In this document: piece by piece, positions 17,332 to 23,157 of the stretch
Position numbering within the stretch: position 1 is the stretch's first letter
How the letters are laid out: each line of letters begins with the position of its first letter
Assembly (NCBI GenBank): GCA_010093995.1
Contig: ML992508.1
Span: forward strand, 778,506 to 842,505
From: Elsinoe ampelina
Taxonomy: Eukaryota
Direction of reading: 5' to 3'
Length of the DNA stretch: 64,000 nt
The notes under the pieces: generated by a model
Databases searched by the model: none
Told to the model about the DNA's origin: nothing
The model's input: only the letters and a program-made list of their open reading frames with translations
Made by a program: the position numbers and the translations under genes

Positions 17332-17643
17332 TAGAAGCTTGCGTGCGTTTGGAACATGTGAAGGTGTCGTTGTTTCCTCCAGCGAGCTGTGATGGTCCTT
17401 GCCCTCTCTGCTCTGTCGCAATCTTGTGATTGGTTCGAGGTGGAGTAAAGTGGTTGCAGACCGATCACGTGTTGTCGTGTTTCGGCCCGTTCTTCCTAGC
17501 GTTCACATCACGTTTGTCTGCCTGCAGAGCTGCAGCTCATGCAACCACATTTTCCAAGTGAATGCTTCCGTCTTCTTTCTTTACGTCCATGACACCTTTT
17601 CTTTCACACACGTAGTCGACCTTGTTTGAGGGATAAAGTCAAG

Positions 17644-20600
17644 ATGTAAGTATATTGGTGAAACACTTGCTACGGCAGCTAACAGAGCATCAGGTGTATG
17701 GTCACTCCGCAATGCTCTATCAAAAGTATACTGCTGACCCCACCACAGCTAAGATTGACAAGCTGTCCATCTTGGGGTATGGATCCACTACTGTTATGGA
17801 TGAACTTGACTGACCATTGTCCAGCATCAGATCCTTCAGTCCCAAGACCTGTGAGGTCATTGAGTTCTTGACGCCACTCACACTCATCGTCGGCTTCAAC
17901 GGATCCGGCAAGACGGTCTGTACTTTCACGAGCCCGAAAGGCACCAATACTCATCTTTGTAGACCATCATCGAATGCCTCAAATATGCCACCACTGGTGA
18001 AATGCCTGAAGGGGCAAAGGTCGGCGGCGCCTGGATTCACGATCCCAAGGTACGATGATAAGAAGTCACGGCATGGAAACAAGCTAATGATCGTGGCAGC
18101 TCACTGGAGAACGGGACACTCTCGGTCAAGTCCGCTTGTCCTTCCGTAACGGCAGGGGAGAACGCATGATCCTCAACCGCAATGTCCAACTCACAGTCAC
18201 CCGCACCAGCCGATCTTTCAAAGCTCTGGAGACAACCCTTGTTCACAAAAAAGCCAACGGCGAGCGTGAATCTCTGTCATCAAAGGTCGGTCAGATCAAC
18301 GAGCTTGTGCCAGATCTCCTGGGCGTGTCCAAGGCAGTTCTGGAGAACGTCATCTTCTGCCACCAAGAGAACAGTCTGTGGCCCATGATGGCCCCCAATG
18401 ACCTCAAGAAAAAGTTTGACGACATCTTCGAGGCTGTCAAGTATACACAAGCTGTCGACAACATCAAGAAGATCCGCAAGGAATACGCCGACAACCTCAA
18501 GACTTTGAGGGTCATTGAGGCCAACGCAAAGGAATACAAGGACAAGGGTGCCAAGGTGAGTATGGGAAATCACGACATTTTGCAACCACTCATGTTTTCC
18601 AGGTCGAGAAAGATACCCACGATCTCACTGCACAGATCGACGAACTTCGCGACCAGGTCACCCAGCTCGATGATGAAAAGACTGAGACTGAGAAGCGCCT
18701 CAATGAGTGCTACGACAGAATCTCTCAGCTCAGCACCCTCCACGGCGATCTCCGCGGCAAGCGCATCATGCTGGAAACCAAGCAGGAGAACATGGAAAAG
18801 TTGAAGCGCAACATCAAGATCCTGCCGGAGCCTGACGCAGAACTTCAGAAAATGCTGGACGACTTTGCCGGTCGTGTCTCTGACCTGGAGTCACAGGTCG
18901 ACTCCCACAGGAAGAAGTACACAGAACTCCAGTCGCAGATTCAAAAGACTCGCAATGCACTCAGCAACAAGGAGCGTGAGCTGGGCTCACTGACCGCCCA
19001 AAAGGATAACTACGAGCGACAAGTCGAGGTTCGCGAGAAGCTAGTCAAGGAGATCGCCCGCAGTCACAACATTCGCGGCTACGATCTTGACATCAGTGAG
19101 GACCAAGTTGCAGAGTTCAAGAGCAAGATGAATGGCATCAAGAGGACTCAGACACAAGCTCTCCAGGAGGCTCGCCGCAAGACCAATGAGGAACTCCAGA
19201 ATGCCCAAGCTACTCTGTCAGGGATCAACGAGAGGAAGACCGGCTACGTTCAACGTAAGGAAAGTGCCAACTCTACCATCGCCGCCAACAACAAGAGGAT
19301 TACCTCTTTGCAGTCCGAGTACGACAACATTGAGGTTGATGAAGGCGCGAAGGCGACACTCGAATTGTCCATCACGGATGCAGAAGAGCGTCTGGCGAAG
19401 AACAAGACAAGCTTCGACAGGGCTGGCTGGGACAACAAGATCCAGCAGATCAACAGCGAGCTCAGCGACCTTGATGACGAGAAGGACAAGCTAGATGCAG
19501 AGCTGGCAGAAGGTGCCAAACGTGCTGGCGAGGTTGCCCGTCTTGAGTATCTGCACAAGGAGGTCAAGGATGGAGAGACCAGCTTGAAGACCATGGCCAG
19601 CACTCATGGCAACAAGATCAAGAAGATCATCAACTCAAGCTGGGATATCTCACGCATCGCTGACCTGGAAGTTGAATTCCAGAACACTCTTTCCACGAAG
19701 ACATCGAGCTTGACAGAGGCTGAGCGTCAACGTGATGGCGTGGGCAACGAGCTGTTACAACTCAACAGCAAGCTTCGAGACTGTCGTAAGAATCTCAAAA
19801 AGAAGACCGAACAGGCTGGAAATCTTAAGGACACGATCGAAAAGGCCCTTGAAGAAGACATCAGCCAGTTTGACGAAGAACTGTCCAAGCTTGAGGAGGA
19901 GGCGGAGACGGTCATGGGGAATAAATCGTCTTCCGAAGCCATGATCAATTACTTCAAGAGCGCAATCAAGAGTGCCAAAGATCACTCCACCTGCCGCCTC
20001 TGTACTCGTGGCTTCGACAAGCACTCCGCACAGCTGGAAGATTTCATCAAGCGCTTGCAGAACAATATCGACAAGACAGCGGGCAACAATGCCAAGCAGG
20101 ACGCAGAAGACCTGCAGTCAGAGCTCAAATCGCTTCGTGCTTTAATTCCGTCACACGAGACTTGGAAGCGCCTAGCCAACAACGAGATCCCAACCCTTGA
20201 GCAGGAGGAGAAGTCGCTGCAGGCGAAGAAGGATCAGCTTGACACCGAGATTGAGTCTTATGATGCTACCGTTGCGGAGCGCCAAAGCGAGGTCGGCGAC
20301 GTTCAGTCTTTGACCAACACCATCAAGAGCATGACCAAGTATCATGCCGACAAGGTCGCCCACGAGCGTCAGATCAAAGAGCTCGAAGCCAAGCAGACTC
20401 ATTCCGGCCAATCTCGAACCCTCGATCAGATCAATGAGTCGATCAAGTCAATTACCGAAAAGGTTCGTGCTGTCAAGGTCAATCTCGGCAAAACCACTGG
20501 CGACCGCGACAAGGCGCGCGCTGCAATCAACAACCTCGAGCTCGAACTACGTGATCTCCGCTCAAAGCTGGAGGGCACTTCATACAAGCTCAAAGAGCGC

Positions 20601-21909
20601 GAAGCCATCGGTCGTCAAATTGGCGAGCTGAGAGCCTCGATCACGGAGCAGCGTGAGGTATACAAGTCGGCGGACGAGCAGCTGAAGTCTCTCGCTCCAG
20701 AGCTCGGTCAGGCTCAAGCTGCTTATGACGAAGTCTCTCGTCAAGGTTCGGAGAAGGACAGCCAGCTTCGCGAGACCATTGCCGCTCTCGACAGCAGTCT
20801 GAATCGCCTTTCGGTATCCGAACAAGAGATCAACGCATACATCGATCGTGATGGTCCAGCTCAGCTTCATCGAACACAGTACTCAATCGACAGCATGAAG
20901 AACGAGCTGCAGTCCTTGGATCAGAAGGTCAACCAGATCACCCGCGACGTCAAGAATATCGAGAACCAACTCCGGAACAACGAGGACACCAAGCGCAGTA
21001 TCGGCGACAACCTCGACCTTCGTCGCGATGAACGTGACATTGAAGCGGTTACTGCAGAGATCAGGAACCTGGAGAGTCACAATGTCGAAGGTGAAAGAGA
21101 CCGCTGGGATCGTGAATGCAAGCACTATGAGAACGAACGCCTCAAGGTCAACGCGGAGCTGAACAAGCTTGTCGGTCAATTGCAGGAGAAGGACAGTCGC
21201 CTACAGAAGAACATCGAAGACTGGGAGACCGACTACAAAGATGCCGCCTACAAGTACAAGGAAGCTCACATTCGTGTCGAGACAACCAAGGCTGCCGTGG
21301 AGGATCTTGGTCGCTATGGAGGTGCTTTGGAGAATGCCGTCATGAAGTACCACACGCTCAAGATGGAAGAAGTCAATCGCATCATCGATGAGCTTTGGCG
21401 TCGCACCTACCAAGGCACCGACGTCGACACCATTGTCATCAAGTCCGAGAACGAATCACAGAAGGGTGGAAAGAGCTACAAATACCGCGTCTGCATGGTC
21501 AAGCAGGACGCCGAGATGGACATGCGTGGTCGCTGCTCTGCCGGTCAGAAGGTGTTGGCCAGTATCATCATTCGTCTCGCCCTGGCAGAGTGCTTTGGCG
21601 TCAACTGTGGTCTCATTGCCCTTGACGAGCCAACCACCAATCTGGACCGCGACAACATTCAAGCTCTTGCTCGCGCTCTTTCCGAGATCATCCGCGTCCG
21701 TCGTCAGCAGAGCAACTTTCAGCTCATCGTCATCACTCACGACGAGGAATTCTTGCGCTATATGCAGTGCTCCGACTACGCCGATGAGTACTATCGCGTC
21801 AGCCGTGATGCGAACCAGGACACGGAGATCACAAGACAGAGCATCAACTACGTGAGTACTTTCGCTGACATGGATGAACAAGACTGACATGATACAGGTC
21901 ATGACCTAG
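17644..21909 (+). CDS. RAD50: DNA repair protein Rad50; introns 17646-17693, 17696-17748, 17777-17824, 17916-17962, 18050-18099, 18556-18602, 21852-21897
   Basis: Spliced N-terminus [15 protein letters not shown]; Walker [22 protein letters not shown]-loop IFCHQE; zinc hook CRLC; signature CSAGQK; Walker [20 protein letters not shown]. Confidence 0.97.
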
Positions 21910-22526: not shown

Positions 22527-23157
22527 ATGGCCAACGCTACTGCCATCATGACAGCCACCAACCCTTCCAGCCCCCAGCGCACCGGCGCCAAAGACAGCGG
22601 CAACATCATGAAGCGGTCCGTCCTCCTCTCTCCCTCTTCCCTTCCCCTTCTAATCCTACTCCAGCCTGCAATCCGAACTCATGACCCTCATGACCTCCCC
22701 TCCTCCAGGGTGCTCCGCATTCCCCCACAACGGCGACATGCTCCACTGGGACGCCACCCTCCTCGGGCCTGAAGGCACCCCCTACGCTGGCCTGACACTC
22801 AAGCTCTCCTTTGAGTTTCCCGCTCGTTATCCTTTCGTGCCGCCCGAGGTGCGCTTCATCACGCCTATTTACCACCCGAATTTTGATTTCAAGGGGAGGA
22901 TTTGTCTGGATATTCTGAAGGACAAGTGGAGTGCGGTGTTGAATGTGGGAACGGTGTTGATCAGTCTGCAGAGTCTGTTGGGGGAGCCAAATAAGTGAGT
23001 ATCTGTGATCGTGAAGGGATGAGAGAAGATGCTGACCAGAGACAGCGCAAGTCCATTGAATGGACAGGCGGCTGAATTGTGGGATAGTGATATGGAGGAG
23101 TTCAAGAGGCAGGTGTTGGCCAGACACAGGGATATTGTTGATGGGGAGGAGGCATAG
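22527..23157 (+). CDS. UBC11: Ubiquitin-conjugating enzyme E2-C (UbcH10/Ubc11 type); introns 22616-22664, 22995-23045
   Basis: KRLQSELMTLMTSPPPGCSAFP...[54 protein letters not shown]; N-terminal extension typical of E2-C. Confidence 0.88.

What the first reader, a model, noticed from the sequence alone, without database searches (positions are those of the whole stretch)
17644..17776. RAD50 start codon is split by an intron and completed by a 2-nt micro-exon
Seen: AT (17644-45) | intron GTAAGT..GCTAAC..CAG (17646-17693) | GT (17694-95) | intron GTATGG..GCTGAC..CAG (17696-17748) | CTAAGATTGACAAGCTGTCCATCTTGGG. Joining gives ATG TCT AAG ATT GAC AAG CTG TCC ATC TTG GG(C) = [11 protein letters not shown](IRSF), matching the conserved Rad50 N-terminus. 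Unspliced, the same ATG is followed immediately by TAA. Skipping the micro-exon destroys the AUG. Inference: translation depends on inclusion of a 2-nt exon that itself looks like a donor site, so splicing could act as an on/off switch. Gene predictors would probably mis-start at the in-frame ATG at 17712 inside intron 2.
Basis: partly seen in the sequence, partly recalled or inferred. Interest (0 to 1): 0.7.

Follow-up and report, generated by a model that had tools for sequence, protein, structure and literature searches.

The report
Two-base exon completes RAD50 start codon
In this fungus the start signal of the DNA-repair gene RAD50 exists only after two tiny introns are cut out around an exon of just two bases, and the same odd layout turns up at the same spot in distantly related moulds, truffles and lichen fungi, where it often seems to trip up gene annotation.

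Summary
The window is Elsinoe ampelina, and the gene is RAD50.

**Sequence.** It reads AT | 48-nt GT..AG intron | GT | 53-nt GT..AG intron | CTAAG...

**RNA evidence.**
- Spliced contigs from two studies join 17647 to 17749, so the mRNA reads ATG TCT AAG.
- The contigs cannot tell a 2-nt exon from a single AA..AG intron.

**What favours the 2-nt exon.**
- Chance: about 5e-5 for the internal splice signals.
- Intron size: 48 and 53 nt, against 46-50 nt for the gene's other five introns.
- Comparison: 23 of 80 metagenomic RAD50 loci have the same layout at the same site, AT|intron|G(T/G)|intron|CN. These include a locus 95% identical to a Tirmania nivea (Pezizomycetes) protein.
- No locus keeps only one of the two introns.

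**Annotation.** Only 17 of 101 NCBI-named Pezizomycotina Rad50 models start canonically.

**Not supported.** The splicing on/off switch is untested. The predicted mis-start at 17712 does not occur in this species' deposited model.

**Novelty.** This is a new variant of a known kind. One-nt exons and start-codon introns are already published. I found no paper on this RAD50 exon.

The parts
17571..17645 (+). 5' exon as far as RNA contigs reach. It is the untranslated leader and ends in AT, the first two bases of the start codon (17644-45).
   Evidence: the X1 contig starts at 17571 and the X4 contig at 17581; sequence. The true transcript start is not known.
17589..17615 (+). Short upstream ORF in the leader: ATG, seven further codons, then TAG.
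   Evidence: sequence. It lies inside both RNA contigs. Not followed up.
17646..17693 (+). Intron A, 48 nt, phase 2 within codon 1. Donor GTAAGT, branch GCTAAC at 17678-83 (branch A at 17682), acceptor CAG.
   Evidence: Absent from the RNA contigs. An orthologous intron of 48-62 nt is present in 23 of 80 loci.
17694..17695 (+). 2-nt exon GT. Its G completes the AUG and its T is the first base of codon 2 (TCT, Ser).
   Evidence: the mRNA reads ATGT|CTAAG. GT in 16 and GG in 1 of the 17 distinct intron pairs.
17696..17748 (+). Intron B, 53 nt, phase 1 within codon 2. Donor GTATGG, branch GCTGAC at 17733-38, acceptor CAG. It contains the in-frame decoy ATG at 17712-14.
   Evidence: Absent from the RNA contigs.
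17749..17776 (+). Coding exon 3: CT AAG ATT GAC ... TTG GG, giving (S)KIDKLSILG.
   Evidence: pieces 17749-17775/6. (matches P0002).
17777..17824 (+). Intron 3, 48 nt, donor GTATGG.
   Evidence: joint (GT..AG, cut +1)..
17825..17915 (+). Coding exon 4, which includes the Walker A motif GSGKT.
17916..17962 (+). Intron 4, 47 nt.
   Evidence: joint.
17963..18049 (+). Coding exon 5.
18050..18099 (+). Intron 5, 50 nt.
   Evidence: joint, seen in X1, X2 and X4.
18100..18555 (+). Coding exon 6.
   Evidence: laid up to 18550..
18556..18602 (+). Intron 6, 47 nt.
   Evidence: the only GT..AG choice that reproduces P0002. Not covered by the laid stretch.
18603..21851 (+). Coding exon 7: the coiled coil and the C-terminal ATPase half.
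21852..21897 (+). Intron 7, 46 nt.
   Evidence: needed to reproduce the deposited C-terminus. No RNA was laid here.
21898..21909 (+). Last coding exon: GTC ATG ACC TAG.

Best explanation
RAD50 of Elsinoe ampelina has its initiation codon assembled by splicing. The leader exon ends in AU. A 48-nt U2-type intron follows, then a 2-nt exon (GU), then a 53-nt U2-type intron, then CU AAG AUU...

**Shown.**
- The mature RNA reads AUG UCU AAG.
- That reading gives the canonical Rad50 N-terminus, [11 protein letters not shown].
- Both sub-introns carry full donor, branch and acceptor signals and have the normal size for this gene.
- The same layout sits at the same codon position in many other filamentous ascomycetes.

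**Inferred.**
- The GU in the mRNA comes from 17694-95, not from the identical GU at 17646-47.
- The two introns are recognised separately by intron definition.
- They are removed one after the other, because a 3' splice site and a 5' splice site only 2 nt apart can hardly be occupied at the same time.
- The order of removal is unknown.
- The arrangement dates to early Pezizomycotina. It has been lost, both introns together, in several lineages.

**Consequences that follow from the sequence.**
- Retaining intron A gives AUG UAA.
- Retaining intron B alone gives an out-of-frame ORF from the AUG.
- Skipping the 2-nt exon leaves no AUG.
- So only the doubly spliced RNA can make full-length Rad50.

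I see no evidence that this dependence is used for regulation. The simplest reading is a constitutively spliced, evolutionarily frozen structure.
For: **RNA.**: contigs from two studies (X1, X4) join 17647 to 17749 with no extra letters. The same contigs lack three further GT..AG introns, so they derive from spliced RNA.

**Match to the deposited protein.**: a model using the 2-nt exon reproduces the deposited 1308-aa protein P0002 exactly.

**Canonical N-terminus.**
- full-length solved Rad50 chains (7zr1_C, 9bi4_C, 9q9h_A) align residue 1 to residue 1.
- Pfam AAA_23, AAA_15 and SMC_N profiles begin at residues 3-6.

**Intron size.**: introns are 48 and 53 nt, against 48, 47, 50, 47 and 46 nt for the others. 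A single 101-nt intron would be twice the gene's norm.

**Chance.**: about 5e-5 for the internal signals, times 0.003 for AAGT after the first GT.

**Conservation.**
- 23 of 80 metagenomic RAD50 loci (16 distinct intron pairs) show AT|GT..AG|G[TG]|GT..AG|CN.
- The intron sequences differ between loci, but GT..AG ends are kept in all 48 introns of the 24 sites.
- A [CT]T[AG]A[CT] branch motif is found in 23 of 24 A introns and 20 of 24 B introns.
- the strict pattern has 0 hits elsewhere in 861,886 nt.

**Taxonomic spread.**
- locus L047 is 95% identical to a Tirmania nivea (Pezizomycetes) protein.
- other loci are nearest to Arachnomyces (Eurotiomycetes, 76-86%), Aureobasidium (64%) and Ikaeria.
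- L032 is nearest to Lasallia among named proteins (56%).

**E. fawcettii read-through.**: the deposited E. fawcettii N-terminal extension reads Q-V-Y exactly 17 residues before RIDKL. The unspliced E. ampelina frame does the same (CAG GTG TAT = acceptor, 2-nt exon, donor). This implies the same 53-nt spacing.
Against: - The RNA contigs cannot say which GT (17646-47 or 17694-95) is in the mRNA. The aligner itself reported one 101-nt skip with ends AA..AG.
- No raw reads were available, so no splicing intermediates, lariats or minor isoforms could be seen.
- The runs are only guessed to be RNA in their records. That they are RNA is my inference from the spliced contigs.
- In L041/L042 the 2-nt exon is GG. 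The micro-exon model then predicts Met-Ala. The rival contiguous reading would keep the commoner Met-Ser, so this locus does not help and leans slightly the other way.
- The taxa of the metagenomic loci rest on protein similarity only.
- E. fawcettii DNA was not seen.
- I could not see how the depositors drew the CDS of P0002.
Confidence: 0.9

Rival explanations
1. There is one non-canonical 101-nt intron (17648-17748, AA..AG). ATGT is contiguous in the genome, and the internal AG-GT-GT is irrelevant.
For: -: this is how the aligner placed the joint (from 17647 to 17749, ends AA..AG). It explains the mRNA equally well.
- in L041 this reading would give the commoner Met-Ser start.
Against: -: across the 17 distinct sites such an intron would begin GA (7), AA (4), AG (3), TT (2) or AC (1). 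No conserved 5' end exists.
- The internal AG|G[TG]|GT junction, with a branch motif upstream, is kept in all 17.
- that junction is expected by chance in about 5e-5 of sequences.
- 101 nt is twice the size of the gene's other introns.
- From general knowledge of U2 and U12 splicing, no spliceosomal class uses such variable 5' ends.
Confidence: 0.04
2. The working protein starts at ATG 17712 on an RNA that keeps intron B. It would carry a 12-residue extension. The spliced form is a minor or non-productive species.
For:: ATG 17712 is in frame with exon 3. Many deposited relatives carry comparable extensions.
Against: -: the only contigs at this place, from two studies, lack 17648-17748.
- If only intron A were removed, the upstream AUG would open an out-of-frame ORF ahead of 17712 (from the sequence).
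- The extensions in relatives are unrelated in sequence and length, as expected of read-through intron. 15 of 34 carry Ala where the acceptor's G is read into codon 2.
- Solved Rad50 chains and Pfam profiles start at residue 1-6 of the spliced form.
Confidence: 0.02
3. The ATGT|CTAAG junction is an assembly artefact of the k-mer contigs.
For:: the evidence is contigs, not reads, with one contig per run.
Against: -: the same junction appears in runs of two different studies. One of them carries 2 other letters in the leader, so the two contigs are not copies of one data set.
- The same contigs show three further exact GT..AG junctions.
- The product equals the deposited protein and the conserved family N-terminus.
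Confidence: 0.01

Closest known systems
1-nt constitutive exons of plant APC11 and VPS55 (PMC4674806, passages read; PMC8831610, passages read)
   Same: - An exon too short to be recognised on its own, flanked by two canonical introns.
- Conserved over long evolutionary spans.
- Missing from most annotations, which gives wrong N-termini.
- Lost together with both flanking introns in some lineages.
- Authors propose one-after-the-other removal under intron definition.
   Different: - Here the exon is 2 nt.
- It lies in a fungus with introns of about 50 nt.
- It bridges codons 1 and 2, so the AUG itself does not exist before splicing.
1-nt exon of Fusarium CYP621A (PMC12940212, abstract and passages read)
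   Same: - An ultra-short exon in a filamentous ascomycete.
- An intervening sequence about twice the usual intron length was the clue.
- SRA transcripts support it.
- Annotation pipelines miss it.
   Different: - That exon lies inside a conserved internal motif and is confined to one genus.
- The RAD50 exon lies at the start codon and is seen in loci nearest to several classes of Pezizomycotina.
- That paper calls its case the first for a fungal gene and says that 2-5 bp exons are known from Arabidopsis, Drosophila and human.
Spliceosomal twin introns (stwintrons) of Pezizomycotina (PMC5639578 and PMC7138796, passages read)
   Same: Two small U2 introns packed together in a roughly 100-nt intervening sequence. 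They must be removed by consecutive reactions and are often auto-annotated as one odd intron.
   Different: [quoted passage not shown]
- Here the two introns are independent units, and 2 nt between them stay in the mRNA.
Recursive splicing at AG|GTAAGT ratchet points, or zero-nucleotide exons (known to me only through the reference list and discussion of PMC4674806, and from recall)
   Same: An acceptor directly followed by a donor. After the upstream intron is removed, a 5' splice site stands ready for the next step.
   Different: Ratchet points leave nothing in the mRNA and subdivide very long introns. Here 2 nt are kept and both introns are minimal in size.
Introns that disrupt the start codon (PMC1626468, passages read: 'relatively rare'; PMC13309789, passages read: 42 Yarrowia introns whose 5' splice site follows the A, T or G of the start codon)
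   Same: Intron A is a phase-2 intron inside codon 1.
   Different: The known cases have a single intron and a normal downstream exon. Here the missing G is supplied by a 2-nt exon that is itself followed by another intron.

Membership tests
Ultra-short micro-exon flanked by two U2-type GT-AG introns | Both flanking introns have GT..AG ends. | tested here: met
   (window); all 48 introns at the 24 sites (23 loci plus the window) are GT..AG. The regex required this, so the test is whether such a parse exists at all. It exists in 23 of the 23 loci that lack a contiguous ATG and look like Pezizomycotina.
Ultra-short micro-exon flanked by two U2-type GT-AG introns | Each intron has its own branch-site motif a short distance before its 3' splice site. 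| tested here: met
   -, window: CTAAC 11 nt and CTGAC 11 nt before the intron ends.
-, all rows: the motif [CT]T[AG]A[CT] is found in 23 of 24 A introns and 20 of 24 B introns.
Ultra-short micro-exon flanked by two U2-type GT-AG introns | Each intron has the normal length for the gene. | tested here: met
   48 and 53 nt, against 48, 47, 50, 47 and 46 nt for the others. A introns are 48-62 nt and B introns 50-86 nt across the loci.
Ultra-short micro-exon flanked by two U2-type GT-AG introns | The mature RNA carries the exon's letters between the neighbouring exons. | tested here: inconclusive
   the mRNA reads ATGT|CTAAG as required. But the exon (GT) is identical to the first two bases of intron A, so the contigs cannot say which GT was used.
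Ultra-short micro-exon flanked by two U2-type GT-AG introns | Two separate lariats or half-spliced intermediates exist. | not testable with these tools
   Only assembled contigs were served, with no raw reads and no lariat data.
Stwintron (spliceosomal twin intron) | An internal intron interrupts the donor, branch or acceptor of an external intron, which becomes functional only after the first excision. No exonic base lies between the two. | tested here: not met
   both introns have complete signals of their own. I tried every way of assigning the G and T of the mRNA to genomic positions. No nested parse with canonical ends gives ATGT|CT. Definition taken from PMC5639578.
Recursive splice site (zero-nucleotide exon) | An AG|GT junction that leaves no base in the mRNA. 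| tested here: not met
   two bases remain. The stepwise order of removal, which the two share as a mechanism, could not be tested.
Start-codon-disrupting intron (phase 1 or 2 in codon 1) | The intron lies between bases of the ATG. | tested here: met
   intron A lies between the T and the G. In the genome the ATG at 17644-46 is followed by TAA.
Single non-canonical or U12-type intron | A conserved 5' end (for example AT-AC, or the U12 donor box) that defines one intron of about 100 nt. | tested here: not met
   the 5' dinucleotide of such an intron would be GA, AA, AG, TT or AC in different lineages.
Rad50 (SMC-like ABC ATPase of the Mre11 complex) | N-terminal Walker A half, long coiled coil and C-terminal Walker B half, with full-length similarity to characterised Rad50. 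| tested here: met
   - AAA_23 (1.5e-32, residues 6-234) and SbcC_Walker_B (residues 1183-1249).
- 7zr1_C, E = 7.8e-250, aligned 1-1305 to 1-1312.
- 100% identical to the deposited 'DNA repair protein Rad50 [Elsinoe ampelina]'.

The most novel reading that the evidence does not exclude
The 2-nt exon is kept because it is useful. Rad50 synthesis would be gated by two obligatory, sequential splicing events. Slowing or skipping either one yields RNAs with an AUG-stop mini-ORF (14 of 17 lineages read UGA, UAA or UAG right after AUG if intron A stays) or with no AUG at all. Such slowing might occur in quiescence, after DNA damage, or outside meiosis. This would be a conserved post-transcriptional switch on a core DNA-repair gene, maintained since early Pezizomycotina.
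Probability: 0.1. Interest if true: 0.8.

Novelty: new variant of a known kind. Interest (0 to 1): 0.62.

Why it matters
1. It is a natural test case for how a spliceosome that works by intron definition handles a 3' and a 5' splice site only 2 nt apart. It comes with many independent sequence variants to compare.
2. It would explain much of a systematic annotation error. In my sample only 17 of 101 named Pezizomycotina Rad50 models have the canonical N-terminus, which is the first strand of the ATPase domain. Many orthologue sets, alignments and structure predictions therefore start from wrong sequences. How many of these species actually carry the 2-nt exon was not checked.
3. It shows that exons of 1-2 nt are not curiosities confined to plants. 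They can persist over the whole span of a fungal subphylum, and aligners report them as a non-canonical intron.
4. If intron retention here proved to be regulated, it would link splicing to control of double-strand-break repair.

Tried and rejected
- **Whole genome of the window.** Not held, so no genome-wide scan for other 2-nt exons was possible.
- **Sequencing runs.** No RNA holder is listed. The five holders are only guessed to be RNA. I treat X1 and X4 as cDNA-derived because their contigs lack GT..AG introns.
- **Uncovered stretches.** 17350-17570 carries no contig, and X2 and X3 do not reach the start codon. Nothing is concluded from this.
- **RNA structure.** Window 17630-17780 folds at -40.3 kcal/mol against -35.9 ± 3.5 for shuffles, z = -1.28. 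There is no sign of a special fold presenting the exon.
- **Earlier findings of this scan.** No look-alike stretches by place or by protein. The word search gave only analogies from other organisms.
- **Paper searches on this exon.**
  - The '2-nt exon' phrasings found 6 papers (5 listed after merging copies). By their titles and abstract starts none concerns a natural fungal exon.
  - Six further phrasings found 0 papers.
  - rad50 combined with microexon, stwintron or mini-exon gave nothing on fungal RAD50.
  - sldI, uvs-6 and rad50 with cDNA and introns gave nothing relevant.
  - The Elsinoe ampelina genome search found no genome paper that I could use.
  - Subscription journals are not in the library. 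I read no supplements.
- **Back-translating the odd N-termini of Sphaceloma murrayae (P0005), Dothideomycetidae sp. 11243 (P0007) and Aureobasidium pullulans (P0011).** They are compatible with several structures. Nothing can be decided without DNA.
- **Stwintron and nested parses of the locus.** None gives canonical ends.
- **Similarity between intron A and intron B** (duplication origin). Judged by eye only; none is evident. Not tested formally.
  - One script ended with an error, because the last intron was not yet known.
  - One call gave a frame error. I searched with P0002 instead.
Full report
**What is in the sequence.**

- AT at 17644-45.
- GTAAGT...GCTAAC...CAG at 17646-17693.
- GT at 17694-95.
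- GTATGG...GCTGAC...CAG at 17696-17748.
- CTAAGATTGAC... running to 17776.

Unspliced, the ATG is followed by TAA. The ATG at 17712 is in frame with the next exon and would give [21 protein letters not shown].

The gene is RAD50 of Elsinoe ampelina. The long exon is 100% identical to the deposited 1308-aa 'DNA repair protein Rad50 [Elsinoe ampelina]' (P0002). Pfam finds AAA_23 and SbcC_Walker_B. Full-length solved Rad50 chains align from residue 1 to residue 1.

**RNA evidence.**

No whole genome is held for the window. Five public runs hold the stretch. None is on record as RNA.

I laid four of them on 17350-18550.
- Two reach the start codon: X1 of study P1 and X4 of study P2.
- Each has one contig that runs up to 17647 and continues at 17749, with nothing between.
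- The same contigs also lack three further segments bounded by GT..AG.
- The contigs therefore come from spliced RNA, and the mRNA reads ATG TCT AAG ATT GAC.

This is precisely the predicted product. A model built from exons 17644-45, 17694-95, 17749-76, 17825-915, 17963-18049, 18100-555, 18603-21851 and 21898-909 reproduces P0002 residue for residue.

The aligner placed the GT at 17646-47 and reported one 101-nt skip with ends AA..AG. Because the 2-nt exon equals the first two bases of intron A, the contigs alone cannot distinguish the two readings.

**Why two introns and a 2-nt exon.**

1. It is the only parse with canonical ends. I went through all assignments of the mRNA's G and T to genomic positions, including nested (stwintron-like) ones.
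2. Each sub-intron has its own donor, its own CTRAC branch 11 nt before its end, and its own CAG.
3. The sub-introns are 48 and 53 nt. The gene's other five are 46-50 nt.
4. Chance is low. Of 100,000 simulated 101-nt sequences, 0.005% carried AG-GT-GTRNG with a branch motif upstream and two sub-introns of at least 40 nt. The consensus AAGT after the first GT adds a factor of 0.003.
5. Comparison, described next.

**Conservation.**

I scanned metagenome contigs with an alignment of eight Rad50 N-termini. This returned 80 loci. They sort as follows:
- 23 have the same layout at the same codon position, AT|GT..AG|G[TG]|GT..AG|CN.
- 54 have a contiguous ATG and codon 2.
- 3 are otherwise: one is cut by its contig end, one has an unusual N-terminus, and one, not like Pezizomycotina, has a phase-0 intron after ATG.

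No locus has only one of the two introns.

The 23 loci give 16 distinct intron pairs. The intron sequences differ from locus to locus, but the signals are kept. Intron A is 48-62 nt and intron B 50-86 nt. The exon is GT in all but L041/L042, where it is GG.

Read as a single intron, the 5' end would be GA, AA, AG, TT or AC depending on lineage. That fits no spliceosomal class.

A strict pattern demanding both donors, branches and acceptors matched 18 of the 24 known sites. It matched nothing else in 861,886 bases.

**How old.**

- L047 is 95% identical over 287 residues to a Tirmania nivea protein. T. nivea is a member of the Pezizomycetes.
- The window is a Dothideomycete.
- L039, L045 and L017 are 76-86% identical to Arachnomyces, a Eurotiomycete.
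- L010 is nearest to Aureobasidium, L074 to Ikaeria, and L032 to Lasallia at 56%.
- Loci nearest to Sordariomycetes, Saccharomycotina-like loci and Basidiomycota-like loci have a contiguous ATG.

I infer an origin early in Pezizomycotina, followed by repeated loss of both introns together. These taxon labels rest on protein similarity only.

For the sister species E. fawcettii I saw no DNA. Its deposited protein carries a 29-residue extension. That extension reads Q-V-Y exactly 17 residues before RIDKL, just as the unspliced E. ampelina frame does. It also has A-D and T-D where the two branch motifs would lie. This fits an unrecognised copy of the same structure.

**Annotation.**

For this genome that is wrong: the deposited protein starts [11 protein letters not shown].

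Among 101 NCBI-named Pezizomycotina Rad50 models returned, the N-termini sort as follows:
- 17 start canonically.
- 34 carry unrelated N-terminal extensions. Of these, 15 have Ala where the acceptor's G is read into codon 2.
- 24 start just before VRSF.
- 26 are further truncated or otherwise aberrant.

I picked the 101 by hand from the rows that carried an NCBI name. I left out proteins from Basidiomycota, an animal and archaea, two partial or very short models, and all unnamed predictions.

Over all 165 proteins of at least 1150 aa, whatever their source, the counts were 37 canonical, 35 extended, 29 lacking the first coding exon and 64 truncated. Many of the unnamed ones come from automatic gene calls.

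Not every aberrant model need be caused by the 2-nt exon.

**Mechanism.**

Shown:
- The doubly spliced product.
- The signals.
- The conservation.

Inferred:
- Recognition of each roughly 50-nt intron as a unit.
- Removal one after the other, because the acceptor of A and the donor of B are 2 nt apart. The authors of the Arabidopsis 1-nt exon paper argue the same for their case (PMC4674806, passages).

The order of removal is open. I found no special RNA fold (z = -1.28).

From the sequence, retention of A gives AUG UAA, retention of B alone gives an out-of-frame ORF, and skipping the exon removes the AUG. In 14 of 17 lineages the codon after AUG would be a stop if A stayed. This follows from the donor consensus GTRAGT and need not be selected. 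Nothing I could test speaks for or against regulated use.

**Comparison with what is known.**

- Exons of 1 nt are published for plant APC11 and VPS55 (PMC4674806; PMC8831610, passages).
- A 1-nt exon was published in 2026 for Fusarium CYP621A (PMC12940212, abstract and passages). That paper also states that 2-5 bp exons are known in Arabidopsis, Drosophila and human.
- Introns inside start codons are a known, rare class (PMC1626468; PMC13309789).
- Stwintrons are the nearest fungal relative in appearance. Their defining nesting is not met here (PMC5639578, PMC7138796).

My searches found no paper describing a 2-nt exon in fungal RAD50. The library lacks most subscription journals.

Two earlier notes of this scan concern Ostreococcus: a split A|TG in RPL3, and a 5' micro-exon in RAD50. 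They are analogies on other DNA, and they led me to PMC1626468.

**Verdict.**

It is an apparently undescribed, deeply conserved 2-nt exon that builds the RAD50 start codon in many filamentous ascomycetes, and it is probably the source of many of the mis-annotated N-termini.

It is a new variant of a known kind, not a new kind.

What remains open:
- Direct proof that the internal GT, and not the first one, is used.
- The order of the two reactions.
- Whether the arrangement is ever used for control.

Noticed in passing
window 17589-17615 (+): A short upstream ORF (ATG, seven further codons, TAG) lies in the RAD50 leader, inside both RNA contigs. It could dampen translation of the main ORF.
   Followed up: no
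window 21852-21897 (+): A 46-nt last intron is needed to reproduce the deposited C-terminus (...INYVMT). Unspliced, the frame would run on to ...[10 protein letters not shown]. No RNA was laid here, so this junction rests on the deposited model only.
   Followed up: partly
window 17696-17701 and 17777-17782: Intron B and intron 3 share the same unusual donor, GTATGG. Most orthologous B introns in other loci have GTAAGT or GTGAGT.
   Followed up: no
L041:2298-2425 and L042 (same sequence): In this locus, whose N-terminal motif is shared with Pleosporales models, the 2-nt exon is GG. This predicts Met-Ala-Thr-Ile-Asp. It is the natural test case that could separate the two readings of the RNA data.
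   Followed up: partly
P0168 (Tirmania nivea), P0025 (Arachnomyces), P0246 (Aspergillus niger), P0022 (Pycnora): Deposited Rad50 models of well-known fungi are fragments or start at invented methionines just before VRSF or later. The Walker A half is therefore mis-started in public databases.
   Followed up: partly
window 22654-22998 (+): Downstream of RAD50 there is an ORF whose translation looks like a ubiquitin-conjugating (E2) enzyme core. I named it from recall of the ...HPN... motif region and ran no search.
   Followed up: no
L072:2400-2530: A more distant RAD50 locus (46% identical, not like Pezizomycotina) has a single phase-0 intron directly after ATG. This is the common 'start codon intron' type, not the 2-nt exon.
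   Followed up: no
L018:2422-2460: One locus that looks like Pezizomycotina has a contiguous ATG but keeps the intron after ...ILG. So the two 5' introns can be lost without intron 3.
   Followed up: no
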